A stretch of 64,000 bases of DNA from assembly GCA_026391355.1 (NCBI GenBank), contig JAPLDH010000045.1, positions 41,620 to 105,619 of the forward strand, given 5' to 3'. This DNA is from Bacteroidota bacterium. Lineage in GTDB: Bacteria; Bacteroidota; Bacteroidia; Bacteroidales; FEN-979. A program made the translations under genes and the position numbers. The notes beneath the pieces are model-generated. The model did not search any database and was not told the DNA's origin. It saw nothing but the letters and a program-made list of their open reading frames with translations. Below are positions 34,669-64,000 of this stretch, piece after piece; within the stretch, counting starts at the first letter, position 1, and each line of letters begins with the position of its first letter.

Positions 34669-35859
34669 TTATAACCATCTGTTATTTAATGAAAGGCTAT
34701 AAACATTTGCGAGCAGTTCTTTATCTATTTCTGTGAAAACCAGACCCCTTCTCTGATATACAAGATCGGCGACTTCAATTGCTTTATCAAGTTTGTAGCT
34801 GCTATGGCCTGCGGTACCTCCCCAGGTGAAGGAAGGAATGAAATTCCGCTGGAATCCAGGCCCGAAGATATTGGCATTGACACCGACCACTGTACCTGTG
34901 TTGAACATGGTATCAATCCCTGATTTTGAGTGGTCTCCCATGATCAGTCCACAAAATTGCAAACAGGTGTTTACAAAAGTACGTTTGCCATAGCTCCAGA
35001 TTCTTACATTGTCGTAAGTATTCTTGAGGTTAGAGGTATTGGTATCCGCACCAAGGTTGCACCATTCGGCTATGACAGAATGTCCTAAAAATCCATCATG
35101 CGCCTTATTAGAGTATCCAAAGAGCACAGAGTTACTGATTTCCCCACCCACTTTACAATATGGCCCGATGGTAGCAGGTCCATATATTTTTGCTGACATT
35201 TTAACTGTAGCATGGTCACAAAGTACAAATGGGCCCCTGATCACACTGCCTTCCATAATCTCTGCATCCTGGCCAATGTAAATGGGCCCGTATGTGGTGT
35301 TGAGGATTGCACATTCAACCTTTGCCCCTTTTTCAAGAAAAATGGCTCCCTCTCCTATAACTTTATTGCTCGTACTTAAGGGTTGGGATTTTCTGCTATG
35401 AGTAAGAAGTTGAAAATCATCATTAATGGCCCGGCTGTTCTGCGAAAAGATATCCCATGAGTAGTTTATTTTCAGTGGGTTGGTTGTTACCGTGATTTCC
35501 TCAATCCCTTCGTATGTCGGGTCCCCAAGACTATTAAGCTCCTCGGCGGTAACATGGAGTGCAATGATTGTTTCATTTGAGACAACCGTCTGGTTTGGTT
35601 TTAGATTTTTTATAATCTTTACAATTTCGGCATTCGGACAAACTGATCCATTGATCAGGATATTATTTTCTTCCTTCAGGATTGGAAATTTTGGGGAAAG
35701 ATAGGTTTCCGTGAGTGTTGAAGTTTTTACTTTCAGATGTTTTTCCCATTTTTCCCTGATTGTCAGTATTCCGAAACGGATATCCGCAACCGGTCTCATA
35801 AACGTCAGGGGTAATAAGTTAGTTCTGACAATACTTTCGTCGAATAATATATAATTCAT
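34669..35859 (-). CDS. GlmU-family putative sugar-nucleotidyl transferase with left-handed beta-helix
   Basis: N-terminal nucleotidyltransferase-like region (LPLTFMRPVADIRFGILT). C-terminal hexapeptide repeats (IGQDAEIMEGSVIRGPFVLCDHATVKMSAKIYGPATIGPYCKVGGEI). The length and style match the alternative bacterial GlmU-like family common in Bacteroidota. Confidence 0.7.
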   Translation of the reverse strand: MNYILFDESIVRTNLLPLTFMRPVADIRFGILTIREKWEKHLKVKTSTLTETYLSPKFPILKEENNILINGSVCPNAEIVKIIKNLKPNQTVVSNETIIALHVTAEELNSLGDPTYEGIEEITVTTNPLKINYSWDIFSQNSRAINDDFQLLTHSRKSQPLSTSNKVIGEGAIFLEKGAKVECAILNTTYGPIYIGQDAEIMEGSVIRGPFVLCDHATVKMSAKIYGPATIGPYCKVGGEISNSVLFGYSNKAHDGFLGHSVIAEWCNLGADTNTSNLKNTYDNVRIWSYGKRTFVNTCLQFCGLIMGDHSKSGIDTMFNTGTVVGVNANIFGPGFQRNFIPSFTWGGTAGHSSYKLDKAIEVADLVYQRRGLVFTEIDKELLANVYSLSLNNRWL

Positions 35860-47043: not shown

Positions 47044-48480
47044 ATGGAAAAGAATGTTGTAGAAATTTGGGAAGATTGTCTTAAGATTATCAAGGATAAT
47101 ATCAACTACCAAAGCTTCAAAACCTGGTTTTTGCCTATAAAGCCATTGAAATTAAAAGATAATGTGCTGACCATTCAGGTACCGAGCCAGTTTTTTTATG
47201 AATGGATGGAAGAACATTACATCGGGTTGTTGAAGAAGACGATAAAAAAGGAATTAGGTAATGAAGGCCGGTTGGAATATAGTATTATCATGGATAATTC
47301 GGAGAATAATGCGGAGCCATACTCAATAAATATTCCTACAGGAGAAAAGAAAGCTGTTTTAAACCCATCAGTTTCAATGCCCATCGATTTGAACCGAGGT
47401 TCATCAAAAGAGATCCCGAATCCTTTTATAATTCCGGGATTAAAAAAAATCAAGGTCAATTCGCAACTGATTGACAGCTATTCGTTCAATAATTTCGTGG
47501 AAGGGGATTGTAACCGGCTGGCACGTTCTGCCGGATATGCAGTTGCCAATAATCCCGGGAAAACTGCGTTCAATCCGTTATTATTATATAGTAACACAGG
47601 TCTTGGAAAAACCCATCTCTCTCATGCTATAGGGTTACAGGTCAAGGAGAATTTTCCGGATAAGACAGCGCTTTATGTAACCACTGATCAATTCACCAAT
47701 CAATTTATCGATTCTGTAAAAAATAACAATCAGAACGATTTCATTCATTTTTACCAAATGATCGATATCCTGATCATTGATGATATTCATAACCTTGGTG
47801 GAAAAGAAAAGACACAGGATGTATTTTTCCATATTTTCAACCACTTACATCAAAAGAGCAACCAGATCATACTTACCTCTGATAAACCGCCGGTAGAAAT
47901 GAAGGGTATCGAACCCAGGCTGCTTTCCCGGTTTAAATGGGGTTTATCTGCAGACCTTCAGGTTCCTGACCTGGAAACAAGGATTGCCATACTGCATAAG
48001 AAACTATACAATGACGGGATAGAAATTCCCAAGGAAGTCGTGGAATACCTTGCCCATTGTATCAATACCAATATCAGGGAGCTGGAAGGCGCGTTGATCT
48101 CTCTTCTTGCTCAGTCTTCATTGAACAAAAAGACCATTACATTAGAGCTTGCAAAGCAGATGATCGACAAGTTCGTTAAGAATACCTCAAGGGAGATATC
48201 AATCGATTATATTCAAAAAGTTGTATGTGATTATTTTAACATTCCGATAGAGATGATTCACTCCAAAACGCGGAAAAGGGAGATCGTACAGGCAAGGCAA
48301 CTATCGATGTATTTTTCCAAGAAGCATACCAAAGCGTCCCTTGCAAGCATTGGTTTGCACTGCGGAAATAAGGACCATGCCACCGTTCTGCATGCATGCA
48401 GAACGGTAAACAACCTGGTTGAAACCGATAAGCAGTTCCGTATCTTCGTTGAAGAACTCGATAAAAAAATAAAATTATAA
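47044..48480 (+). CDS. dnaA: chromosomal replication initiator protein DnaA
   Basis: Domain I (W...L..I), AAA+ Walker A (GLGKTHL), Walker B (LIIDDIH), sensor region (NIRELEGAL), and the C-terminal DNA-binding helix (QARQLSMYFSKKHT..SL..IG...G.KDHATVLHA). Confidence 0.97.
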   Translation: MEKNVVEIWEDCLKIIKDNINYQSFKTWFLPIKPLKLKDNVLTIQVPSQFFYEWMEEHYIGLLKKTIKKELGNEGRLEYSIIMDNSENNAEPYSINIPTGEKKAVLNPSVSMPIDLNRGSSKEIPNPFIIPGLKKIKVNSQLIDSYSFNNFVEGDCNRLARSAGYAVANNPGKTAFNPLLLYSNTGLGKTHLSHAIGLQVKENFPDKTALYVTTDQFTNQFIDSVKNNNQNDFIHFYQMIDILIIDDIHNLGGKEKTQDVFFHIFNHLHQKSNQIILTSDKPPVEMKGIEPRLLSRFKWGLSADLQVPDLETRIAILHKKLYNDGIEIPKEVVEYLAHCINTNIRELEGALISLLAQSSLNKKTITLELAKQMIDKFVKNTSREISIDYIQKVVCDYFNIPIEMIHSKTRKREIVQARQLSMYFSKKHTKASLASIGLHCGNKDHATVLHACRTVNNLVETDKQFRIFVEELDKKIKL

Positions 48481-53930: not shown

Positions 53931-56045
53931 TTAATAGATGCCGGTTCTCTTGCGGATAAACCACTCAGCAGAGATGAGGAGAAGAATCAAAAGAAAAACC
54001 CAGATGTTACCAGCAAGGTCAGCATACCGTTTCTGAAGGTAAGAAACCGGCCGGATGTCTTCCCGCTTATTTACAAGGTTGTAGAGTTGGTTAATGTCAT
54101 GAGGAGAAACCATTTCACCGTCATGTGACCTGGCAATTTTAAACAGAAGATTATGATCTGCAGTGGTGTTCATCAATTCCAGATTTAAAGCAGAAATGAC
54201 AAACTCTCCTTTTTTCTCATATCGGTTATTCCCAACTTTCACTGATGCTGTGTACTTATAGCTTCCTATGGGGAAATTTCCTGCATTGAGATAATAGGCT
54301 TTATCAGTCCTGCCAAAAACAAAAGGAAAGGTTTTCCCCTGTTCATCAGTGATTATAAGATTTACATCCGGTTCATTTATCAGTTCATAACTCTTATTAT
54401 ATACTTCTCCATCGAATTCAATAAGTTCATTTTCCTGGAAACGGGTTTTAGTTTTTACCCGGAAAAAACTTTTATCTGCTTTAACCGAGAGGTATTGTGC
54501 AATTTTATTTATCAATTCATTAAAAACATCATGGTTTCCCTTTTGCTGATAGTCAGATAAACTCCATTTCCAAAGGTTCTCACCGGCTATAATCCCTATC
54601 TTTTTTCCTGAATTTTGCAGGAAAAGAATGAGAGGAATATTGGAAGCGACATTCCCGATCTTCTGTTCAAAAAGAACATCTGCTGCTGGTGAAAAATGGA
54701 ATGTCCCATATGGTGAGAGCAATGGTGGAAATTCCCTGATAACATCGATGAGTCCTTTATCCATAGTGAAAAGCGGGAAGGATTCATTCCATTGGGGAAG
54801 GGATTCAACATATGTTGTTTTGGAAGTGGTTATTTCAAGCCCTGTTTTTATTGAATTGAATGAATTAAGGTCGGTTTGGCTGCCGAGGCAAATCAGAAGT
54901 GAACCATTGAAAGAAAGGAACCGCGATAAATTTGAAATACCCAGTAAAGACGGAACCTGGTAAAGAATAATGAGATCGTATTTATCAACAGGCCCGGTAA
55001 ATTCATCGGCCTTATATTCTTCAACTTCAAACCTTAATGAACTCTCAAGTGCGTTACGGAGTACAGAAATATCAGGATGTGGTGACTGGTAGAGAATGGC
55101 AATTTTTTGACGTGTTTCCGACACTTCGACCATCAAATCCTGTTGGTTATTTAGCTTGCTAATTTCATCTTTTACAGGGTTAACGATTACCATAAACCTT
55201 TGATTACCATTTTCCCTGGCATCGAGCACTGTATTTACTTTGATGGTCGATTGAATGGAAGGAAAGGTTATTTTTTTATTAAAAAGGATCTGATCCTTTC
55301 TTTTAATAATGATTTCTGTCGTTTCTCCTTCACATTTATTTGCCGATACATTGATCTCCACAGGGAATTTATCACCTTTAAAGACGGTTGGGTTGTAGTT
55401 TATTTTTTTTATAATGATATCCCGTGTGAGGATTGTGTCGCCCATTGCAACAGTAAATATGGGATAGTTCATGTTTAATGTTGAATAATATGGATTTGAT
55501 CCTTTGTTATATATCCCGTCAGTTGCAAGAATCAAAGCACCTATATTCCTGTTTGAATAGCGGCTTTTCAGATCATCCAGCAGTTCAGAGATATCGGTTT
55601 GCCGTTCATGAAAATTTATTGCCGGGTCACTGGTAATTTTTTCACCGAATGAAAAGAAAGCAACATCGTATTTCTTCTTCAGCTGACCGGTCAGATCTTT
55701 CAGCTTTTCCTGGTATTCAGTCTTGTAAAAAACAGAATCATTTCCATAAGTGACAGATAAAGAATTATCCTGTGCAACAATAATTACCGGTTTCTCAATA
55801 TTTTCCGTGGTTTTCTTTATCAGTGGCGAAAGGAGTAAAAATGATATAACGGTGATTCCCAGGAAGCGGAGGATAATCATAGTACTGAGCATCCATGGAT
55901 GCATATCTTCCCTTTTTGTCCTGTAATACAGGAAAAAAGTTCCTAAACCGCCGATCAGGAGGCAAAGGAAGAAAAACCATACCGGGTATTCAATAATCAG
56001 GCCCAACTTGACATCTATTATGTATGTAATCCACCACAGACACAA
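53931..56045 (-). CDS. large membrane-anchored protein, possibly vWA-like (unknown function)
   Basis: N-terminal double TM (EYPVWFFFLCLLIGGLGTFFLYY; MIILRFLGITVISFLLL), IIVAQDNSLS and LILATDGIYNKG strands reminiscent of a vWA/Rossmann-like fold, and a C-terminal TM anchor. The TTG start at 56045 overlaps fabG by 28 nt. An alternative TTG at 56006 would not overlap it. Confidence 0.5.
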   Translation of the reverse strand: MCLWWITYIIDVKLGLIIEYPVWFFFLCLLIGGLGTFFLYYRTKREDMHPWMLSTMIILRFLGITVISFLLLSPLIKKTTENIEKPVIIVAQDNSLSVTYGNDSVFYKTEYQEKLKDLTGQLKKKYDVAFFSFGEKITSDPAINFHERQTDISELLDDLKSRYSNRNIGALILATDGIYNKGSNPYYSTLNMNYPIFTVAMGDTILTRDIIIKKINYNPTVFKGDKFPVEINVSANKCEGETTEIIIKRKDQILFNKKITFPSIQSTIKVNTVLDARENGNQRFMVIVNPVKDEISKLNNQQDLMVEVSETRQKIAILYQSPHPDISVLRNALESSLRFEVEEYKADEFTGPVDKYDLIILYQVPSLLGISNLSRFLSFNGSLLICLGSQTDLNSFNSIKTGLEITTSKTTYVESLPQWNESFPLFTMDKGLIDVIREFPPLLSPYGTFHFSPAADVLFEQKIGNVASNIPLILFLQNSGKKIGIIAGENLWKWSLSDYQQKGNHDVFNELINKIAQYLSVKADKSFFRVKTKTRFQENELIEFDGEVYNKSYELINEPDVNLIITDEQGKTFPFVFGRTDKAYYLNAGNFPIGSYKYTASVKVGNNRYEKKGEFVISALNLELMNTTADHNLLFKIARSHDGEMVSPHDINQLYNLVNKREDIRPVSYLQKRYADLAGNIWVFLLILLLISAEWFIRKRTGIY

Positions 56046-56823: not shown

Positions 56824-58287
56824 TTATTTCACTACTATGATCTTCATATAATCCTGATGTCCGCTGACATTCATGCAGCACAAATAAGTTCCGGGGCTGA
56901 GATGGGTAGCATATGTTTCAGTTTTGTATTCACCAGCCTGCAATCGTTCATTGAGAACCGACTGAATTTTTTTTCCATTCAGATCAATAATATCGAGCTT
57001 AACCCAAGCGGGTGTTTTAATCCGGAATGGAATGGTTGTTGAGAATGCAAATGGATTCGGATAATTTGGAAGTAATTCATCCTGGGAAGGGATAATACCC
57101 GAAATGGGTTTTATTCCGGCATAGATTCCATGGGGCCCCGGACCTGAAGGTGTGTAACCATGGCAAACATCACATTTTTTCAGGGTTCCGGCAAAACCCT
57201 GTAAGGCAAAGTTCTGGAGATTATCCTCCGACCTGGAACTGGGAAGAATGGCATGTGGCGAGTTATGGCATGTGCTGCACATGAGGTTTCCCATTCCTCC
57301 TTTCGATTGACGGAACAATAAACCGGGTTGTTCGGCAAAATTAGCTCCATGACATGAAGTTGCTCCACATGATGGTTCCTGCAACCAGGGTGTTCTTCCC
57401 CCTGCAATGGTACTCCCGACATGAGCTACGTTACCATGACAATCGGTGCACCATGTGCCAGCAGAGTGCATGGTATCTCTCAGGCACTGGGTATTGGGAC
57501 CGGGATGACATTTATAGCAATCAGTTGTAATAATTCCTCCATGGGCTGAATGGATTGCCTGGGAAAAGATTGGAGCACCACCCGACCCGGTGGTTCCCAA
57601 TGCCGGATCTGCATGACAACCGGCGCAAAAGATAGGCCTGTTGTTGATATTGAAGCCGGATACACTTTCATGAGCCTGGAGAATATCCATTTCGCTGGTG
57701 TGACACCCTGAACTGACACAGTTGATCTCGTTAGATACAGGAATTGTATTTAGTGTGGTTGCCAGCACCTCTGCCCCGGAATTCATGGCTGTTATTAAGG
57801 TTAACTGATAAGGGTGTTCATTAACGAGATCATTATCGGGATAAGGTGTCAGAGGAATTCCCTGAACATGATAGAAGTTGTTTGAATCAGCCATAGTCCC
57901 GCTGAGGCCATACCCTGTTAAACCGATATTATCGGGAAGGTTTACACCAAAGATCTGGAAAGCATAGGTCCAGAAATTTGTTTTCCCGATGGAATAGGTA
58001 TTTCCGGGTATCTCATAGGTCACAGAGATCCCGCTGGTAGCCGGATCCATTATAACTGGTGCAGCAGTAGATGATCCCTGAAGGATCACATGTGCAGAAA
58101 TATTGTTATAAGGTGGCAAAATGCACATATTACTGAAATCCTTGTTTGCACAATGCATACCCAGGTCATTCCAGGAAATTACATTATAATAATCTGTTGA
58201 CGGGGCTTTTGTGTGCTTTGGTGAAAAGGCAACCAGGAGCAATGTGATCAGCAATCCTGCTATTATAAATGTAAAAATCTTTTTCAT
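56824..58287 (-). CDS. secreted multiheme c-type cytochrome (7 putative heme sites) with T9SS C-terminal sorting domain
   Basis: Signal peptide (MKKIFTFIIAGLLITLLLVAF). Five CxxCH motifs (CAGCH, CYKCH, CTDCH, CSTCH, CDVCH) and two Cx4CH motifs (CVSSGCH, CGATSCH) lie between residues 190 and 376 (nt 57160-57720). The last ~83 aa resemble a T9SS CTD (LLPNYPNPFAFSTTIPF...GTYLCCMNVSGHQDYMKIIVVK). Confidence 0.8.
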   Translation of the reverse strand: MKKIFTFIIAGLLITLLLVAFSPKHTKAPSTDYYNVISWNDLGMHCANKDFSNMCILPPYNNISAHVILQGSSTAAPVIMDPATSGISVTYEIPGNTYSIGKTNFWTYAFQIFGVNLPDNIGLTGYGLSGTMADSNNFYHVQGIPLTPYPDNDLVNEHPYQLTLITAMNSGAEVLATTLNTIPVSNEINCVSSGCHTSEMDILQAHESVSGFNINNRPIFCAGCHADPALGTTGSGGAPIFSQAIHSAHGGIITTDCYKCHPGPNTQCLRDTMHSAGTWCTDCHGNVAHVGSTIAGGRTPWLQEPSCGATSCHGANFAEQPGLLFRQSKGGMGNLMCSTCHNSPHAILPSSRSEDNLQNFALQGFAGTLKKCDVCHGYTPSGPGPHGIYAGIKPISGIIPSQDELLPNYPNPFAFSTTIPFRIKTPAWVKLDIIDLNGKKIQSVLNERLQAGEYKTETYATHLSPGTYLCCMNVSGHQDYMKIIVVK

Positions 58288-58386: not shown

Positions 58387-61300
58387 TTAAATCCACTTCA
58401 CTAAATTAAAATCCTGACGGTGAGGGAGAAGTGGATTTTTAGGAAATAGCCTGAACACATAATTATATACACCAGGCTGATCCAGAGAAATATCACAAGT
58501 ATAGGTGACTTTGTTCTTTTCAGAACTTTTCAGGGTCATTTCATAGATCTGGACGGGTTCAGCGATCTCATCGTTTTCTTTAATTCCAAAAAGGACTTCC
58601 ACGCCCAGGTCAGTGCCGGAAAGTTCATTCATGTCAAGAACCATTTCAGCACTGAACGTTTCACCAAGCACCAAAGGTTTTTGTGTGGAATCAGGGATAT
58701 TGAGTGATACGACTTCTATGCTTTCCCATCCCCTTAGCACATTTCGTTTCCAGGAGGCAAGGTGGCGTGCCATCTCGAAGTTTTTCTCCTTGATTTGTAT
58801 CGACCTTTGAATGAGTGGGTTATAGAACATCCTGATATAGTCATCGAGTTGCCTTTTCATTGTATAATGCGGAGCAATTCCCGAAATTGTATTTTTAATA
58901 TGGGCAACCCATTTTACCGGTACTTTTTTGGTATTAACATCAAAATAAAGAGGTATGATCTCTTCCTCAAGCACAGTATAGATCGTTTCTGCATCAAGAT
59001 CATCCTGGATAAGAGAGTTACTGTAGGTGGCCTTTTCAGGTATAGCCCAGCCTGCATTTTCTCTGTATCCTTCTGCCCACCAGCCATCGAGGACACTGAA
59101 ATTGACTACGCCATTCATTACCGCTTTTTCCCCGCTTGTTCCGGAGGCTTCCATTTTTCTTTCCGGTGTATTCAACCAGATATCAATGCCCTGAATGAGA
59201 TATTTTGCCAATTCAATATCATAGTTTTCCACAAAAAAGATCTTTCCCTGGAATTCAGGCGTTTTTGAAATCTCATAGATACGTTTGATCAATTCCTGTC
59301 CGGCCTGATCCTGAGGATGAGCTTTCCCTGCAAAAATAAATACGACTGGTTTTTCTTTGTTGTTGACTATTTTTGAGAGCCTTCCCGGATTGCTAAACAA
59401 CATGTAGGCTCTTTTATAGGTAGCAAAGCGGCGTGCAAAGCCAATCGTCAAAGCATTATGAGGAATTGACTCCTTTATACTAAAGATAAGTTTCGGGTTT
59501 TCATTCCTGCGTGTCATTTCTTCATATACCCTGTTTAGTAAATATCCCACAAGGTGACTTTTCAATACGAGCCTGATTTTCCAAATGACCTCATCATCCA
59601 CGTTTTGAATGGTCTTCCAATAGTCAGGATTTGACTGATCACTCAAAAAGCCCTCCCCGAATTGCCGTTGGTAAAGTTTCTGCCATGCCATTGCAGTCCA
59701 CGTAGGATAGTGAACTCCATTTGTAACATACCCGATGTGTAATTCATTTGCATAATATCCCTGATAAAGTTTCTGAAACATCTGTTTTGTAACCTCGCAG
59801 TGAATGCGGCTCACTGCATTGATCTCCTGGGATAATTTGGCAGCCAGGATACTCATTGAAAACTTTTCGTCGGGATCGTTTTCGCTTATTCTTCCCAGGT
59901 TAATAAACTGTTCCCATTTTATATTGAGGCGTTCAGGATAATGGGAAAGGTATCTTCGTACAAGATCTTCCGTGAAAGTATCATGTCCGGCAGGAACCGG
60001 TGTATGTGTTGTGAATAAGGTGGATGACCGTACTACTTCCATTGCCTGGTAGAAAGTAAGTTTATTATTCCTGATCAGGTTACTGAGTCTTTCAATTCCA
60101 ATGAAAGCTGAATGACCTTCATTGAGGTGATAGATATCGGGATGGATGCCAAGGAGGTCCAACAACCTGATCCCCCCTATTCCCAGGAGGATTTCCTGCC
60201 TTAACCTGTTTTCCGAATCGCCGCCATAAAGCTGGTGGGTTATTACCCTGTCGTTTTCTACATTTTCATCAATATCCGTATCCAGCAGATATAAAGGGAC
60301 CCTGCCAACATCCACCCGCCAGACTTTGGCATACATTGTTCTGCCAGGTAATGCAAAGGTGATCTTCTGCCAGTTATTATTCTCATCCCTGACAGGGATC
60401 AGCGGCAGATGTGCAAATTTCTGCGGGCTGTAGGAAGCAATCTGTTCCCCGGTTATTGAAATTTTCTGCTGAAAATAGCCATACCGGTACAAAATGCCGA
60501 CACCAAGAATATTGGAGTTTGAATCGCTGGCTTCTTTAAGATAATCTCCTGCCAGCATTCCAAGACCTCCTGAAAATATTTTAAGGGTATCGTGCAGACC
60601 AAACTCCATACTGAAATAGGCAACTGTTTCTTTGGGCTTCCCAGCCGCTTTTTCCATATAACTGTCAAAATGTGCGAGTACTGCCTGAAGTTTACCGAGA
60701 AACTTGGTATTCTGACTTAATTTCTGCAAATCCTGGTAGGTCAGGGATTCAATTAATGAGATTGGGTTGTTTTTATTTTTGGCCCATTTCTCCTTGTCAA
60801 TCATCTCAAACAGTTCAGATCCTTCAGGATTCCAAGTCCACCAAAGGTTTTTTGTAAGCATGAGCAATCCTTCGAGGTTTGCAGGTACGCTCGGTTGAAT
60901 CAGTATCTTCTTCCATTCGGGTTTTGCTTCGATGGCTTTACTGATAGAGACTGCATGAACCTGTGGTTGTTTACTCCTGAACAAATCGCTTCTCAGGGAG
61001 ACTTTTTCGAGGGCATGTGAGTATGCCTCATGATAAAAATTCACAAAGTTTGTCCAAAGAGCCAGCCGGGAGATATCATACGCCTCTTTACGCATTTTGA
61101 GGACCTCTTCTTCCGATTTGAGGCAATTGCGCTGAACTGTTTTTACAATTTCATCTGTAACGTAAGCATCATTGTTATCATTTCTGTCGATAATGGTGAT
61201 ACCTTCACCAGGATTGGAGTTACTGCTGTTGACCCACTGACCAAATCCGGCAAGCGTGGTCGTTATCGTAGGTATATGAAAGGCGAGACTTTCGAGAGGG

Positions 61301-62634
61301 GTGTATCCCCAGGGTTCATAGTATGAAGGAAAGATCGATCCATCAAAACCGACCAGGAAATCATAGTAACTGAGGTTGAAGATACCATCCATACCATTCA
61401 GGTACGCCGGTACAAATAAAACTTTAACACGGTCTTCAGGACGATTGTGCAGATCGTTCATCTGGATCCTTTTCAGGATCGGGTCATTCTCGGGTTCGTG
61501 CAGGCCATGAGTAAGAAATTCATCCACGACCGGTTCAGTGAAATCTGCTTTATCAATCCTTTCCAGGAGTTTTTGCCGGGGGCCTGTCTGGTATGCAGGG
61601 ATGGTCAGGAAAGCGATGATATTTCTTTCAAGTGGAAACTTATTCAATCTGCCAAGTGAATCGATGAAAAGATCAATTCCTTTATTTTTAAACTCATATC
61701 TGCCGCTGATAATAATGAAGATGCTGTTTTCCGGAAGAGGGTGGTTAACCATACCCTCCGCAACCTTCATGAGTTTCAGACGTGCTATGGCCCTTTTCTC
61801 ATAGTAGAGTTCCTTTTCAGGAACGAATGTATCTTCAAAGCCGTTGGGTGTAACAACATCTACCTCTTTTCCCAGGAACCGGCGACATTCATTATTTGTA
61901 ATCTGGCTGACCGTTGTAAAACTATCCGTTTCCTCTGCAGAAAGTTTTTCAAGCGATTGTTTGGCGATAAGGTTAAAGTATTCCGCCATCTTATCACCGT
62001 CGTAATTCGCCAGATCACGGTACAAAGGAAGTCCATTACCAGCAATAGCCCGGCCGACAGCAGTGGCATGCGTTGTAAAACAGGTGCCCACCTGGGGAAC
62101 CTTATTCTTTAAATAAAGGATCCCTGTCCCAGTCATCCACTCATGAAACTGAGCAATAATCCTGTCGTGCTGGGAAAGGTTGAAATTGTAAAAGCTTTCG
62201 ATAACCTTCCCTGCAGCATATCCGAAAAGTGCAGGTTCAATGTAATCCCAGCCCCCTGTGAGGGAATCCAGCTTATAGGTTTCCCATAGCCAGGCAAAGA
62301 TGGCATCCTTGTCAGAAAAATAGGGAGTAAAATCAATCAGAATAACAACCGGTTTCGAGAGGATATTCCAACGGCCCACTTTAATCCTGAACCCTTCACT
62401 CTCTGCTTTCAGTCTCCATGCTTTATAAAGAAATTTATCTTCAAGGAATTCCGGATTCTGATGGGTTTCTTTCCAGACATCCGGGCCAATAAGGATATAA
62501 TTATCCTTTAATTCCTTGACTAATGTAAGTGTTTTGGTGGATATGACGGTGTAGATCCCACCGACTTTATTACAGACCTCCCAACTCGTTTCAAAAAGAT
62601 AATCAGGTTTTATAAGAATACTGTCGTTTACCAT
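58387..62634 (-). CDS. fusion protein: GT3 (eukaryote-type) glycogen synthase + GT35 alpha-glucan phosphorylase
   Basis: N-terminal ~560 aa (nt ~60960-62634): FETSWEVCNKVGGIYTV, FHEWMTG and YYEPWGYTPLES (E-x7-E) are GT3 hallmarks. C-terminal ~840 aa (nt 58387-~60930): NLWWTWN (DUF3417-type N-terminus), GGLGMLAGDYLKEASD and EASGTSGEKAVMNG (PLP lysine) are alpha-glucan phosphorylase hallmarks. It is one uninterrupted 1415-codon frame. Confidence 0.88.
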   Translation of the reverse strand: MVNDSILIKPDYLFETSWEVCNKVGGIYTVISTKTLTLVKELKDNYILIGPDVWKETHQNPEFLEDKFLYKAWRLKAESEGFRIKVGRWNILSKPVVILIDFTPYFSDKDAIFAWLWETYKLDSLTGGWDYIEPALFGYAAGKVIESFYNFNLSQHDRIIAQFHEWMTGTGILYLKNKVPQVGTCFTTHATAVGRAIAGNGLPLYRDLANYDGDKMAEYFNLIAKQSLEKLSAEETDSFTTVSQITNNECRRFLGKEVDVVTPNGFEDTFVPEKELYYEKRAIARLKLMKVAEGMVNHPLPENSIFIIISGRYEFKNKGIDLFIDSLGRLNKFPLERNIIAFLTIPAYQTGPRQKLLERIDKADFTEPVVDEFLTHGLHEPENDPILKRIQMNDLHNRPEDRVKVLFVPAYLNGMDGIFNLSYYDFLVGFDGSIFPSYYEPWGYTPLESLAFHIPTITTTLAGFGQWVNSSNSNPGEGITIIDRNDNNDAYVTDEIVKTVQRNCLKSEEEVLKMRKEAYDISRLALWTNFVNFYHEAYSHALEKVSLRSDLFRSKQPQVHAVSISKAIEAKPEWKKILIQPSVPANLEGLLMLTKNLWWTWNPEGSELFEMIDKEKWAKNKNNPISLIESLTYQDLQKLSQNTKFLGKLQAVLAHFDSYMEKAAGKPKETVAYFSMEFGLHDTLKIFSGGLGMLAGDYLKEASDSNSNILGVGILYRYGYFQQKISITGEQIASYSPQKFAHLPLIPVRDENNNWQKITFALPGRTMYAKVWRVDVGRVPLYLLDTDIDENVENDRVITHQLYGGDSENRLRQEILLGIGGIRLLDLLGIHPDIYHLNEGHSAFIGIERLSNLIRNNKLTFYQAMEVVRSSTLFTTHTPVPAGHDTFTEDLVRRYLSHYPERLNIKWEQFINLGRISENDPDEKFSMSILAAKLSQEINAVSRIHCEVTKQMFQKLYQGYYANELHIGYVTNGVHYPTWTAMAWQKLYQRQFGEGFLSDQSNPDYWKTIQNVDDEVIWKIRLVLKSHLVGYLLNRVYEEMTRRNENPKLIFSIKESIPHNALTIGFARRFATYKRAYMLFSNPGRLSKIVNNKEKPVVFIFAGKAHPQDQAGQELIKRIYEISKTPEFQGKIFFVENYDIELAKYLIQGIDIWLNTPERKMEASGTSGEKAVMNGVVNFSVLDGWWAEGYRENAGWAIPEKATYSNSLIQDDLDAETIYTVLEEEIIPLYFDVNTKKVPVKWVAHIKNTISGIAPHYTMKRQLDDYIRMFYNPLIQRSIQIKEKNFEMARHLASWKRNVLRGWESIEVVSLNIPDSTQKPLVLGETFSAEMVLDMNELSGTDLGVEVLFGIKENDEIAEPVQIYEMTLKSSEKNKVTYTCDISLDQPGVYNYVFRLFPKNPLLPHRQDFNLVKWI

Positions 62635-62645
62635 AACCGGATATT

Positions 62646-64000
62646 TCAGAATAAAGATTTAATTTCCTGCTCAATTTTCTTTCTGTATTTTGTCACCTCG
62701 GCTGTTTTGATAGTTTTTATCTGATCAAGAAATTCATGATACTTCTTCAGTGCAAGTTTCCCAAGGTTCTTTTCAATTTTTTCCCTCACTGCCTGATGTG
62801 CACCTTTTGTGGCATACGTAAGGGTCATGAGGTCTACCTTTTTTACCATTTCCTTGATCTTACGGTCAGAAAGATCAAGGATAGAGTCAAAATTCAGTGA
62901 TTTAAAATTTCCCGTTACTATAACAGACGCTGCTTTTTTATCATCTGTTTTTACTGTTTTTTTTATCGATTGTTTCCGGACAACCGACTTGGTCTTTTCA
63001 ATAGATTTCCTGCTTTGCCTGACCGGTTCATCTATTTTAAGCTTCCGGGTAACCTGTTTTTGTGCAGGTCTTGAGAAATCTTTTTCCACCCGGAGAATAA
63101 AATCTGAAAGTACATTCATATAGTTGATGAATGCTTCATAAGGAGATGGGTAAGGATTAAAATATTTATGAATGGTACCATCTGAGAACCATTTGGTACA
63201 CATATAATAAAAATGGTCTGTTGTCTGGAGCAACCGCCAGTCGTGTAAAATTTCCGTATCCTGGCACTTGTTCATCTTCTCCTGAACAGAATAGAGTTTT
63301 TCGAAAGCCTCGTCCTGTAATTCATTTCCGAGCCATGACGTAAGGTCCCGTTCTTCATCTGCCCATGAAATGGGATGAGTGACATGTATCGGAGCGACCG
63401 GCTGAAGTTTTTCAGAAATTTCAGAGGGGGTACTAAAGATGTAATCTGATTTTGAAAAGATGGTCTTCGGCAGTGCCTTGAAAAAGTCAAAAATCCCTGT
63501 CTCTTTCCATTGCCTCTCCCCTATTGTTTCATAATCAATAAAGATATTGACAACCTCTTCCCTGGATTCAATCTTGTTGAGCCAACCGACAAATTTCTCT
63601 GTGGTGAGTGGCCATTCAGCCCAAGAATGGGTTGAAAACCGAAAACTGATATCATCACTTAACCGGAAATTCCTGAGGAGAATCTTCAGCTTTGGATTCA
63701 GGGAACTGCAGTACAAGTAGTTCGGGCTTTTCCATCCTAAAATATGTTTTGCACCTTCGGTGATCATTGTAGTAAACCCCATATCGGTGATCATTTCACC
63801 GATGCGGTCGGAATAGATCAATTCCGTATTCCTAAAAGTTTTGGGTTTCTGTCCAAAATAGCGTTCAATGGTATCAGAATGAAGTTTTACCTGGTTTGCA
63901 AACTCTTCTTTATTGCTAAGTGATGAAAGCGAGTGGGCATAGGTTTCGGCCAGGAATTCCACGCAACCGGTTTTAGCAAGTTCCTTGAAACTCTGTATCA
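62646..64000 (-). CDS. glycoside hydrolase family 57 protein (5' end outside window) with Lys-rich linker and FliG_C-like C-terminal domain
   Basis: The frame stays open to the window edge (...IQSFKELAKTGCVEFLAETYAHSL), so the GTG at 63962 is internal. GH57-like DYETIGERQWKETGIFDFF and HPISWADEERDLTSWLGN. The C-terminal 80 aa (62649-~62890) match the FliG C-domain pattern. The stop lies 11 nt before the GT3-GT35 start. Confidence 0.8.
   Translation of the reverse strand, partial: IQSFKELAKTGCVEFLAETYAHSLSSLSNKEEFANQVKLHSDTIERYFGQKPKTFRNTELIYSDRIGEMITDMGFTTMITEGAKHILGWKSPNYLYCSSLNPKLKILLRNFRLSDDISFRFSTHSWAEWPLTTEKFVGWLNKIESREEVVNIFIDYETIGERQWKETGIFDFFKALPKTIFSKSDYIFSTPSEISEKLQPVAPIHVTHPISWADEERDLTSWLGNELQDEAFEKLYSVQEKMNKCQDTEILHDWRLLQTTDHFYYMCTKWFSDGTIHKYFNPYPSPYEAFINYMNVLSDFILRVEKDFSRPAQKQVTRKLKIDEPVRQSRKSIEKTKSVVRKQSIKKTVKTDDKKAASVIVTGNFKSLNFDSILDLSDRKIKEMVKKVDLMTLTYATKGAHQAVREKIEKNLGKLALKKYHEFLDQIKTIKTAEVTKYRKKIEQEIKSLF

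What the first reader, a model, noticed from the sequence alone, without database searches (positions are those of the whole stretch)
58387..62634. Single polypeptide fusing glycogen synthase (GT3) to alpha-glucan phosphorylase (GT35)
Seen in sequence:
- One 1415-codon frame with no internal stop.
- The N-terminal half carries the eukaryote-type glycogen synthase hallmarks, including the E-x7-E catalytic pair (EPWGYTPLE).
- The C-terminal half carries the phosphorylase PLP-lysine motif (TSGEKAVMNG) and the GGLG.LAGD glucan-binding motif.
- The junction is around residues 545-575 (nt ~60920-61000).

Both modules therefore look catalytically competent.

Inference: joining the polymerising and the depolymerising enzyme of the same polysaccharide predicts a futile cycle unless the two halves are regulated reciprocally, for example allosterically through shared oligomerisation. 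Alternatively, the phosphorylase half may act as a primer-binding or scaffold module.

Fused versions may already be annotated in some Bacteroidota genomes. I cannot verify this, and I am not aware of biochemical characterisation.
Basis: partly seen in the sequence, partly recalled or inferred. Interest (0 to 1): 0.6.

Follow-up and report, generated by a model that had tools for sequence, protein, structure and literature searches.

The report
Fused glycogen synthase–phosphorylase gene (known family)
The window really does encode one 1415-residue protein joining a eukaryote-type glycogen synthase to a glycogen phosphorylase, but this fusion is common and already catalogued in Bacteroidota and some other phyla, and I found no published biochemistry on it.

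Summary
One uninterrupted ORF lies on the minus strand (58387..62634, 1415 aa). Its N-terminal half is a GT3 glycogen synthase and its C-terminal half a GT35 alpha-glucan phosphorylase. Every catalytic residue I could map is present in both halves.

It is not an assembly artefact. 143 full-length homologues are colinear with it, and 79 of the 80 best species genomes carry both halves in a single ORF.

The architecture is already catalogued: KEGG K16153 "glycogen phosphorylase/synthase", and IMG product names. It is the last gene of a conserved operon (debranching enzyme, GT4/5-like transferase, GH57, fusion). In split forms the two genes sit next to each other in the same order, so this is a fusion of operon neighbours.

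The phosphorylase half closely matches (E 6e-273) the Segatella copri phosphorylase characterised in 2026, a glycogen-binding pentamer inhibited by AMP. The synthase half lacks the eukaryotic glucose-6-phosphate arginine cluster.

Most likely both modules are active and joined by a flexible linker of about 37 residues, which would fix 1:1 stoichiometry and place both on the glycogen particle. Net flux would then be set by metabolites. I found no paper characterising the fused enzyme.

Verdict: an ordinary member of a known but under-studied family.

The parts
58387..62634 (-). Whole ORF, 1415 aa plus stop: fused glycogen synthase and glycogen phosphorylase (KEGG K16153 type).
   Evidence: It is 90% identical to P0001 and 77% to P0003, both over 100% of the length.
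60994..62610 (-). GT3 glycogen-synthase module, about residues 9-547 (GT-B fold).
   Evidence: Pfam PF05693 scores 317 bits. Solved eukaryotic glycogen synthases (4QLB, 8CVX, 3NAZ) match at E 1e-74 to 1e-78. The AlphaFold2 model has pLDDT 80-95 here, and Foldseek gives TM 0.72-0.78 to those synthases.
61681..61701 (-). Arg312 to Lys318 (GRYEFKNK), the nucleotide-sugar phosphate-binding Arg and Lys of GT3.
   Evidence: These align to positions 331 and 337 of the human GYS1 chain. From my own knowledge those correspond to yeast Gsy2p Arg320 and Lys326. Arg is present in 135 and Lys in 136 of 144 fused proteins.
61291..61317 (-). E-x7-E motif EPWGYTPLE, residues 440-448.
   Evidence: It aligns to human GYS1 Glu510 and Glu518. 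The two glutamates are conserved in 142 and 144 of 144 fused proteins.
60883..60993 (-). Inter-module linker, about residues 548-584.
   Evidence: This is the least conserved part (0.43 against about 0.7 elsewhere). It averages 39.5% identity to the window protein, against 61% and 64% for the two halves. The model is coil over residues 548-584, with pLDDT about 32 at 561-581. The Tyr534-to-Trp574 spacing is 39 residues in 108 of 144 proteins.
60583..60888 (-). DUF3417, the alpha-helical N-terminal domain of clade-2 phosphorylases (residues 583-684).
   Evidence: Pfam PF11897 scores 105 bits. In ScGP the alpha-helical domain helps assemble the pentamer (PMC12912991).
60544..60570 (-). GGLGMLAGD glycine loop, residues 689-697.
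   Evidence: It is invariant or nearly so in 144 fused proteins and identical in ScGP.
58816..60624 (-). GT35 phosphorylase catalytic core (TIGR02094, residues 671-1273).
   Evidence: 816 bits against a cut-off of 191.7. The whole C-terminal half matches ScGP 9L6I end to end at E 6e-273.
59110..59139 (-). PLP-lysine motif TSGEKAVMNG (residues 1166-1175; Lys1170).
   Evidence: Lys1170 aligns to ScGP Lys609, which carries PLP. The lysine is present in 144 of 144 fused proteins.
58390..58767 (-). C-terminal beta-sheet domain (GlgP_C, PF28476 in homologues), about residues 1290-1415.
   Evidence: The alignment to ScGP runs to its last residue, 851. PF28476 is precomputed for homologues. A C-terminal beta-sheet domain is the hallmark of clade-2 phosphorylases (PMC12912991).
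62646..64000 (-). Upstream GH57 gene, cut by the end of the window. It ends 11 nt before the fusion's ATG and so probably shares an operon with it.
   Evidence: Pfam PF03065 at E 4e-54; sequence. The same GH57-then-fusion order appears in L001, and 43 of 59 related loci carry the upstream GT4/5-like and GH57 genes.

Best explanation
**What it is (shown).** This is an ordinary member of the catalogued 'glycogen phosphorylase/synthase' family (KEGG K16153). It is the last gene of a conserved glycogen operon: archaeal-type debranching enzyme, GT4/5-like glycosyltransferase, GH57 enzyme, then GT3::GT35.

**How it arose (shown for the gene order, inferred for the event).** Two adjacent operon genes were joined end to end.

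**How it works (inferred).**
- The protein is two independently folded, catalytically competent GT-B enzymes on a flexible tether of about 37 residues.
- The N-terminal GT3 module lengthens alpha-1,4 chains from a nucleotide sugar. UDP-glucose is the likely donor, by analogy with Prevotella bryantii. It lacks the eukaryotic glucose-6-phosphate and phosphorylation controls.
- The C-terminal module is a PLP-dependent clade-2 glycogen phosphorylase like S. copri ScGP. ScGP sits on glycogen particles as a pentamer and is inhibited by AMP.
- The fusion fixes 1:1 stoichiometry and keeps the synthase at the surface of the glycogen particle through the glycogen-binding phosphorylase half.
- Whether glycogen grows or shrinks is then decided by metabolites (nucleotide-sugar supply, the Pi/glucose-1-phosphate ratio, AMP). 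It is not decided by differential expression.
- Some simultaneous synthesis and breakdown ('glycogen cycling') is tolerated. Cycling has been reported for the rumen bacterium Fibrobacter.
For: **Architecture and family scores.**

**Catalytic residues in both halves.**
- They are present in the window protein.
- They are near-invariant in 144 full-length fused proteins.
- The two halves diverge in step: identity to the window protein correlates at r = 0.93, with means of 61% and 64%. This points to purifying selection on both.

**Abundance and naming.**
- 6514 homologues have E <= 1e-10. The top 120 are nearly all about 1415 aa, and IMG names them 'glycogen phosphorylase/synthase'.
- KEGG K16153 carries EC 2.4.1.1 and 2.4.1.11 (PMC11017998).
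- At least 598 genome hits were found, and 79 of the best 80 species have one ORF.

**Operon context.**
- The operon is seen in L001, and 43 of 59 loci carry the upstream GT4/5-like and GH57 genes, nearly all also the debranching gene.
- In the split form L083 the order is GT4/5-like, GH57, GT3 (556 aa), a 152-nt gap, then GT35.

**Linker.** The model shows it disordered, with no confident packing between the halves: linker pLDDT about 32, pTM 0.50, GT3 half pLDDT 80-95.

**Properties of the phosphorylase half.** ScGP is a glycogen-wrapping pentamer inhibited by AMP (PMC12912991).

**UDP-glucose and cycling.** UDP-glucose-dependent glycogen synthesis is reported in Prevotella bryantii, and glycogen cycling in the rumen bacterium Fibrobacter (PMC4432691; PMC7935935).
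Against: - No enzyme assay of any fused member was found, so activity of both halves in one polypeptide is inferred from residues only.
- Donor specificity (UDP-glucose or ADP-glucose) cannot be read from the sequence.
- The distal AMP-site arginine of ScGP (Arg583) is Lys1144 here. Across the fused family this position is Lys in 102, Gln in 23 and Arg in 15 of 144. AMP control may therefore not carry over.
- Whether the pentamer forms with a 60-kDa synthase attached to each N-terminus is unknown.
- The AlphaFold2 model covers only residues 1-1200 and used a shallow alignment of close relatives. Its low pTM is weak evidence for flexibility.
- 11 of 144 fused homologues have lost the GT3 Arg or Lys, so 'both halves active' does not hold for the whole family.
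Confidence: 0.72

Rival explanations
1. The phosphorylase half works mainly in the synthetic or anchoring direction. It binds the glycogen particle, or it makes or extends short maltodextrin primers from glucose-1-phosphate for the GT3 half. In eukaryotes GT3 synthases need a glycogenin-made primer. On this reading the fusion is a 'primer plus elongase' machine and not a synthase/degrader pair.
For: - Eukaryotic GT3 synthases need a primer, and no bacterial or archaeal glycogenin is known (Chem Rev review PMC11046441).
- ScGP catalyses the reverse, synthetic reaction with a good Km for glucose-1-phosphate, and it wraps glycogen particles.
- The tether has a nearly constant length, 39 residues in 108 of 144 proteins.
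Against: - The kcat of ScGP in the synthetic direction is described as much smaller than that of other phosphorylases.
- A GT4/5-like transferase related to self-priming bacterial GlgA is conserved in the same operon. It is an equally good primer candidate.
- All phosphorolysis residues are conserved, as expected for a degradative enzyme.
- From my own knowledge, cellular Pi/glucose-1-phosphate ratios normally favour phosphorolysis.
Confidence: 0.15
2. One half is a catalytically dead scaffold (a pseudoenzyme) kept only for binding or oligomerisation.
For: 11 of 144 fused homologues carry substitutions of GT3 Arg312 or Lys318 (for example SGPHEKKNRG with EPWGYSSQES in P0071, P0086 and P0092), while the PLP lysine is intact. 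Loss of synthase chemistry has therefore probably happened in some lineages.
Against: - The window protein has the canonical residues at every mapped catalytic position in both halves.
- So do about 130 of the 144 relatives.
Confidence: 0.06
3. The fusion is an artefact: two adjacent genes were joined by a sequencing or assembly error that removed a stop codon or frameshift.
For: - Split forms with the same gene order exist (L083).
- One MAG (L028) has the halves in different frames at the junction.
Against: - The linker is colinear, and of the same length, with 143 independent full-length proteins.
- It is also colinear with 79 of 80 species genomes, including isolates such as Dysgonomonas sp. 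HGC4 and Chitinophaga rupis DSM 21039, and with a 5.27-Mb contig.
Confidence: 0.01

Closest known systems
KEGG orthologue K16153 'glycogen phosphorylase/synthase' (EC 2.4.1.1, 2.4.1.11); IMG product 'phosphorylase/glycogen(starch) synthase'; RefSeq 'alpha-glucan family phosphorylase' of about 1400 aa (for example WP_247814908.1 from Chitinophaga filiformis and WP_237377747.1 from Sulfidibacter corallicola)
   Same: The domain order, length and linker are the same. Identity is 60-90% to many database members.
   Different: Nothing structural differs; the window protein is a typical member. The RefSeq name hides the synthase half. I found no biochemical paper on any member.
Segatella copri glycogen phosphorylase ScGP (PDB 9L6I and related entries; PNAS 2026, PMC12912991), a clade-2 GT35 enzyme
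   Same: - The C-terminal 845 residues align end to end at E 6e-273.
- His316, Arg507, Arg508, Tyr512, Lys513, PLP-Lys609 and Glu278 are conserved.
[quoted passage not shown]
   Different: - ScGP is a stand-alone protein of 852 aa. Here a 547-residue synthase is attached, through a linker, at the position of ScGP's N-terminal loop.
- The distal AMP-site residue Arg583 is Lys1144 here.
- Pentamer formation and AMP inhibition are untested for the fusion.
Eukaryotic GT3 glycogen synthases (yeast Gsy2p 3NAZ/3NB0, human GYS1 7Q0B/8CVX, C. elegans 4QLB)
   Same: - The GT-B fold is shared (Foldseek TM 0.72-0.78, 28-29% identity).
- The E-x7-E motif, the Arg/Lys pair and the HEW motif are conserved.
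   Different: - Only 1 of the 6 regulatory-helix arginines is kept. Human Arg579, 580, 582, 586, 588 and 591 correspond to Glu508, Glu509, Val511, Arg515, Glu517 and Asp520 (my mapping).
- A 71-residue eukaryotic segment (human 372-442) is replaced by 24 residues. This is probably the extra helices that mediate tetramerisation (PMC11046441; the link is my inference).
- There are no N- or C-terminal phosphorylation tails and no known glycogenin partner.
Split GT3 plus GT35 gene pairs in the same operon (for example metagenomic locus L083)
   Same: The gene order is the same: GT4/5-like, GH57, GT3, GT35. The GT3 protein is 56% identical to the window's N-terminal half.
   Different: The two are separate proteins with a 152-nt spacer. 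That GT35 is only 37% identical to the window's C-terminal half.
Other fusions of consecutive alpha-glucan pathway enzymes (TreS-Mak/Pep2; GlgB-MalQ in Neisseria)
   Same: They follow the same evolutionary logic, in which operon neighbours acting on one polymer are fused into one protein (PMC11046441).
   Different: Those fuse enzymes that act in the same direction. This one fuses the nominal builder to the nominal degrader.

Membership tests
GT3 glycogen synthase (Pfam PF05693) | A profile match above the curated cut-off that covers both Rossmann-like domains. | tested here: met
   317 bits against a cut-off of 27, in two stretches. The first is residues 15-348; in the PDB alignments the second runs from about residue 373 to 545-556.
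GT3 glycogen synthase (Pfam PF05693) | The catalytic E-x7-E motif and the Arg/Lys pair that binds the nucleotide-sugar phosphates. | tested here: met
   Glu440 and Glu448 align to human Glu510 and Glu518. Arg312 and Lys318 are present and conserved in 135-144 of 144 fused proteins.
GT3 glycogen synthase (Pfam PF05693) | GT-B fold superposable on solved glycogen synthases. | tested here: met
   The AlphaFold2 model has pLDDT 80-95 over the N-terminal half. Foldseek gives TM 0.72-0.78 to 8CVZ, 5SUK and 4QLB.
GT3 glycogen synthase (Pfam PF05693) | Glucose transfer from UDP-glucose to the alpha-1,4 chain end. | not testable with these tools
   Only analogy is available: UDP-glucose-dependent glycogen synthesis in Prevotella bryantii (PMC4432691, PMC7935935).
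Eukaryote-type regulated glycogen synthase (G6P- and phosphorylation-controlled subgroup of GT3) | The six-arginine cluster on the regulatory helix, and the tetramerisation insertion. | tested here: not met
   Only Arg515 of the six arginines is kept. A 71-residue eukaryotic segment is reduced to 24 residues (my mapping).
GT35 alpha-glucan phosphorylase, TIGR02094 / clade 2 (ScGP type) | A profile match above the curated cut-off. | tested here: met
   TIGR02094 scores 816 bits against 191.7. PF00343 scores 109 bits against 27.
GT35 alpha-glucan phosphorylase, TIGR02094 / clade 2 (ScGP type) | The PLP-binding lysine and the phosphate/substrate residues (ScGP His316, Arg507, Arg508, Lys513, Lys609). 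| tested here: met
   All are conserved, as His877, Arg1068, Arg1069, Lys1074 and Lys1170. They are conserved in 141-144 of 144 fused proteins.
GT35 alpha-glucan phosphorylase, TIGR02094 / clade 2 (ScGP type) | The N-terminal alpha-helical (DUF3417) domain and the extra C-terminal beta-sheet domain. | tested here: met
   PF11897 covers residues 583-684. The alignment to ScGP runs to its last residue. PF28476 GlgP_C is on record for homologues.
GT35 alpha-glucan phosphorylase, TIGR02094 / clade 2 (ScGP type) | Pentameric assembly, and AMP-induced decamerisation through the distal site (Arg583). | tested here: inconclusive
   The equivalent residue is Lys1144. Across the family it is Lys in 102, Gln in 23 and Arg in 15 of 144. 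The oligomeric state cannot be computed here.
K16153 glycogen phosphorylase/synthase fusion | An N-terminal GT3 and a C-terminal GT35 in one polypeptide of about 1400 aa. | tested here: met
K16153 glycogen phosphorylase/synthase fusion | Both EC activities (2.4.1.11 and 2.4.1.1) in the one protein. | not testable with these tools
   I found no assay in the held literature.

The most novel reading that the evidence does not exclude
The fused protein may assemble, through its phosphorylase half, into an ScGP-like pentameric ring clamped on the glycogen particle. Five tethered synthase heads would then hang over the same chain ends. A single particle-bound machine could switch between growing and trimming outer chains, for example by AMP-driven stacking of rings. 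Alternatively, the phosphorylase half could supply primers and so replace glycogenin. Either case would be a new mode of glycogen control, with no counterpart in E. coli or in eukaryotes.
Probability: 0.15. Interest if true: 0.65.

Novelty: already known. Interest (0 to 1): 0.3.

Why it matters
As a sequence feature it adds nothing new. The architecture has its own KEGG number and occurs in at least about 600 species-level genomes.

It does mark a real gap in knowledge:
- The main glycogen enzyme of many gut, rumen and environmental Bacteroidota joins the builder to the breaker of the polymer.
- I found no biochemical or structural study of the fused form.
- RefSeq names it only as a phosphorylase, which hides the synthase half from annotation-based pathway surveys.
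- The 2026 structure of the stand-alone S. copri phosphorylase now makes the fused enzyme an approachable target.

Tried and rejected
**Literature.** Six full-text searches for any description of the fusion found only KEGG-number listings and general reviews. None discusses the fused enzyme (with follow-up reading). Two further searches failed on syntax.

**Solved structures.** No PDB chain covers both halves, by sequence or by fold.

**AlphaFold2.** The truncated phosphorylase half came out at modest confidence. No contact map is returned, so packing between the halves could be judged only from pTM 0.50.

**Fused versus split phylogeny.** A quick neighbour-joining tree of 120 GT3 domains shows fused and stand-alone forms interleaved. 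The tree is too crude to count fusion or fission events. Some 'stand-alone' entries may also be fragments cut at contig ends, so I draw no conclusion beyond 'both forms are common'.

**Transcription signals.** The promoter/terminator scan of the 3' flank found no terminator and only chance-level promoter matches.

**Other glycogen genes in the window.** I looked for GlgC, GalU and a branching enzyme. Among the ORFs I scanned, covering most of the larger ones, none was found beyond the GH57 gene. The nucleotidyltransferase at 34669-35859 is a GlmU type.

**Mis-assembly.** Rejected on colinearity with homologues. Read mapping itself could not be done.

Full report
**1.

The minus strand carries a single ATG-initiated ORF at 58387..62634, encoding 1415 residues with only the terminal stop.
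- EPWGYTPLE at residues 440-448.
- GGLGMLAGD at residues 689-697.
- TSGEKAVMNG at residues 1166-1175.

Profile searches give the domain order Glycogen_syn (PF05693, 317 bits), DUF3417 (PF11897, residues 583-684), then Phosphorylase (PF00343). The whole C-terminal core matches TIGR02094 'alpha-glucan family phosphorylase' at 816 bits against a cut-off of 191.7. G+C content and third-position G+C are the same in the two halves.

**2. It is not an artefact.**

- A search of 5.8 billion proteins returned 6514 relatives at E <= 1e-10. The best 120 are almost all 1400-1423 residues, cover 99-100% of the query and are 60-90% identical.
- I aligned the window protein with 143 full-length fused homologues. 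The two halves are colinear in all of them.
- The distance between two flanking landmarks (Tyr534 and Trp574) is 39 residues in 108 of 144 proteins.
In 79 of the best 80 loci both halves lie in one ORF. These include Dysgonomonas sp. HGC4, Chitinophaga rupis DSM 21039 and Paludibacter, plus many Bacteroidales, Rikenellaceae, Muribaculaceae and Prevotellaceae MAGs.
- Only one MAG (L028) has the halves in different frames.

**3. Both halves look catalytically competent.**

*Synthase half, against solved eukaryotic glycogen synthases (E about 1e-76).*
- Glu440 and Glu448 fall on human GYS1 Glu510 and Glu518.
- The Arg312/Lys318 pair and the HEW motif are conserved.

*Phosphorylase half, against S. 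copri ScGP (PDB 9L6I, E 6e-273, aligned to its last residue).*
- Every residue that paper names in catalysis is conserved. His316, Arg507, Arg508, Lys513 and the PLP-bearing Lys609 correspond to His877, Arg1068, Arg1069, Lys1074 and Lys1170.
- The proximal AMP/inhibitor-site residues Glu278 and Tyr512 are conserved as well.

*Across the fused family.*
- These positions are conserved in 135-144 of 144 proteins.
- Identity of the N-terminal and C-terminal halves to the window protein tracks closely (r = 0.93; means 61% and 64%, against 39.5% for the linker). This is the pattern expected if both halves are under purifying selection.

*Exception.* Eleven homologues have lost the GT3 Arg or Lys while keeping the PLP lysine.

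**4. What differs from the textbook enzymes.**

- The synthase half keeps only one of the six regulatory-helix arginines that mediate glucose-6-phosphate and phosphorylation control in animal and yeast enzymes. Human Arg579, 580, 582, 586, 588 and 591 correspond to Glu508, Glu509, Val511, Arg515, Glu517 and Asp520.
- A 71-residue eukaryotic segment (human 372-442) is replaced by 24 residues.
- A review attributes eukaryotic tetramerisation to extra helices in the GT-B core (PMC11046441). That the missing segment is those helices is my inference.
- The phosphorylase half belongs to 'clade 2'. These enzymes have an alpha-helical N-domain and a C-terminal beta-sheet domain. The stand-alone S. copri enzyme forms an asymmetric pentamer that wraps glycogen particles. 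AMP inhibits it by stacking two pentamers into a decamer, through a distal site that needs Arg583 (PMC12912991).
- Here that position is Lys1144. Across the family it is Lys in 102, Gln in 23 and Arg in 15 of 144, so transfer of AMP control is uncertain.

**5. Genomic context.**

- The gene upstream on the same strand is a GH57 enzyme. It ends 11 nt before the fusion's ATG and runs off the end of the window.
- The closest relative with a long contig (P0003, 77% identity, 5.27 Mb) shows the full cluster: an archaeal-type debranching enzyme (TIGR01561), a GT4/5-like transferase of 435 aa, GH57, then the fusion. Its downstream genes are syntenic with the window.
- Of 59 related loci with at least 3 kb of upstream DNA, 43 carry the upstream GT4/5-like and GH57 genes, nearly all also the debranching gene.
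- A genuine split form (L083) has the same order. Its GT3 is a 556-residue protein, followed after 152 nt by a separate DUF3417-phosphorylase gene.
- The fusion therefore joins two operon neighbours. Co-expression of synthase and phosphorylase probably preceded it.
- The rest of the window is ordinary chromosome (gyrA, clpB, lon, recN, ETF genes, dnaA), with several proteins carrying type IX secretion tails. This fits a Bacteroidota genome.

**6. Distribution.**

- I searched 1.84 billion cluster representatives with the GT3 half alone. 537 clusters scored E <= 1e-30.
- Of the best 150, 53 also carry the phosphorylase; 25 of these are full length at 1390-1450 aa.
- The other 97 carry GT3 only, 68 of them being 530-615 aa.
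- A rough neighbour-joining tree interleaves the two forms.
- The fusion also occurs outside Bacteroidota. It is found in several Planctomycetota MAGs and in the isolate Sulfidibacter corallicola. RefSeq names it only 'alpha-glucan family phosphorylase'.

**7. Is it known?**

Yes, as an annotated entity.
- KEGG has the orthologue K16153, 'glycogen phosphorylase/synthase', EC 2.4.1.1 and 2.4.1.11 (PMC11017998). It is used as an alpha-glucan synthesis marker in PMC11093988.
- IMG names the proteins 'phosphorylase/glycogen(starch) synthase'.
- I found no paper that discusses or assays the fused enzyme.
- The 2024 Chem Rev review of prokaryotic alpha-glucan enzymes treats Bacteroidetes GT3 sequences phylogenetically, but the passages my term search returned say nothing about this fusion. 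The 2026 ScGP paper has no occurrence of 'fusion', 'fused' or 'glycogen synthase'.
- The held library lacks most subscription-journal papers, so 'uncharacterised' is provisional.

**8. How it most likely works.**

*Shown.*
- The protein has two complete catalytic modules.
- An AlphaFold2 model of residues 1-1200 gives pLDDT 80-95 for the synthase half.
- It gives pLDDT about 32 for residues 561-581, with coil over residues 548-584.
- Its pTM is only 0.50, so there is no confident packing of one half on the other.
- Foldseek matches the two halves separately, to ScGP and to eukaryotic synthases. No PDB chain covers both.

*Inferred.*
- The modules act independently on the same glycogen particle.
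- The glycogen-binding phosphorylase half serves also as the anchor that keeps the synthase at the chain ends.
- Net synthesis or breakdown is set by metabolites: nucleotide-sugar supply, the Pi/glucose-1-phosphate ratio, and possibly AMP.
- UDP-glucose is the likely donor. Prevotella bryantii makes glycogen from UDP-glucose, lacks glgC and has a eukaryote-type synthase. Its UDP-glucose pyrophosphorylase is activated by a fructose phosphate (PMC4432691; PMC7935935).
- Simultaneous synthesis and degradation of glycogen is documented in the rumen bacterium Fibrobacter (PMC4432691). A degree of cycling is therefore not a paradox that the fusion must solve.

**9. Rivals.**

- *Primer maker or pure anchor.* The phosphorylase half may act as a primer maker or only as an anchor. 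This remains possible because no bacterial glycogenin is known. However, the operon's GT4/5-like transferase is at least as good a primer candidate, and ScGP is slow in the synthetic direction.
- *Dead scaffold.* This reading is contradicted for this protein by residue conservation. It may apply to the small lineage with degenerate GT3 residues.
- *Mis-assembly.* Effectively excluded.

**10. Verdict.**

The feature is an ordinary member of a known, widespread and biochemically unexplored family. Novelty is 'already known' and interest is about 0.3. That interest rests on the lack of published biochemistry and on the new ScGP structure making the fused form approachable.

Noticed in passing
window 62646-63040 (minus strand), the 3' end of the upstream GH57 gene: The GH57 protein ends in a lysine-rich linker followed by a FliG_C-like domain (PF01706, E 8e-11, 42.6 bits against a cut-off of 23.3). 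The GH57 of the closest relative lacks this tail. The same tail recurs on the GH57 genes of L003, L004, L006, L035 and L072. A flagellar-switch-like domain on a glycogen-operon enzyme has no obvious explanation.
   Followed up: partly
homologues P0071, P0082, P0083, P0085, P0086, P0088, P0092, P0093, P0142, P0023, P0035: Eleven of 144 full-length fused proteins have the GT3 Arg312 or Lys318 replaced. Several also change the glycine loop and the E-x7-E surroundings (SGPHEKKNRG; EPWGYSSQES). All keep the phosphorylase PLP lysine. This may be a sub-lineage in which the synthase half has become a pseudoenzyme.
   Followed up: partly
L028 7560-7740 (Bacteroidales MAG CAVUJY010000014.1): This is the only one of 80 species loci where the two halves lie in overlapping ORFs in different frames, exactly at the linker. 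It is either a frameshift error in the MAG or a recent fission.
   Followed up: no
protein clusters of P0159, P0205 and P0128: The same fusion occurs outside Bacteroidota, in several Planctomycetota MAGs and in the isolate Sulfidibacter corallicola. RefSeq labels all of them only 'alpha-glucan family phosphorylase', which hides the synthase half from annotation-based pathway surveys.
   Followed up: partly
window 53931-56045 (minus strand): A 704-residue ORF has no Pfam match. A syntenic 649-residue gene, also without Pfam hits, sits at the same position in the closest relative, L001.
   Followed up: no
window 56824-58287 (minus strand): The gene just downstream of the fusion encodes a 487-residue protein with a type IX secretion C-terminal sorting domain and a weak cytochrome c7-like match. 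It is syntenic in L001. No terminator-like site lies between it and the fusion.
   Followed up: no
window 47044-48480 (plus strand): dnaA lies in the window, so the chromosomal replication origin may be nearby. I did not examine this.
   Followed up: no
L001 7127-8434 and the equivalent genes in 43 of 59 related loci: A 435-residue GT4/5-like transferase is conserved two genes upstream of the fusion. Its best NCBIfam matches are glgA_Coryne and glgA, both below cut-off. It may be the 'GlgA-GT5 fragment' that a review says Bacteroidetes retain, and it is a candidate glycogen primer enzyme.
   Followed up: partly
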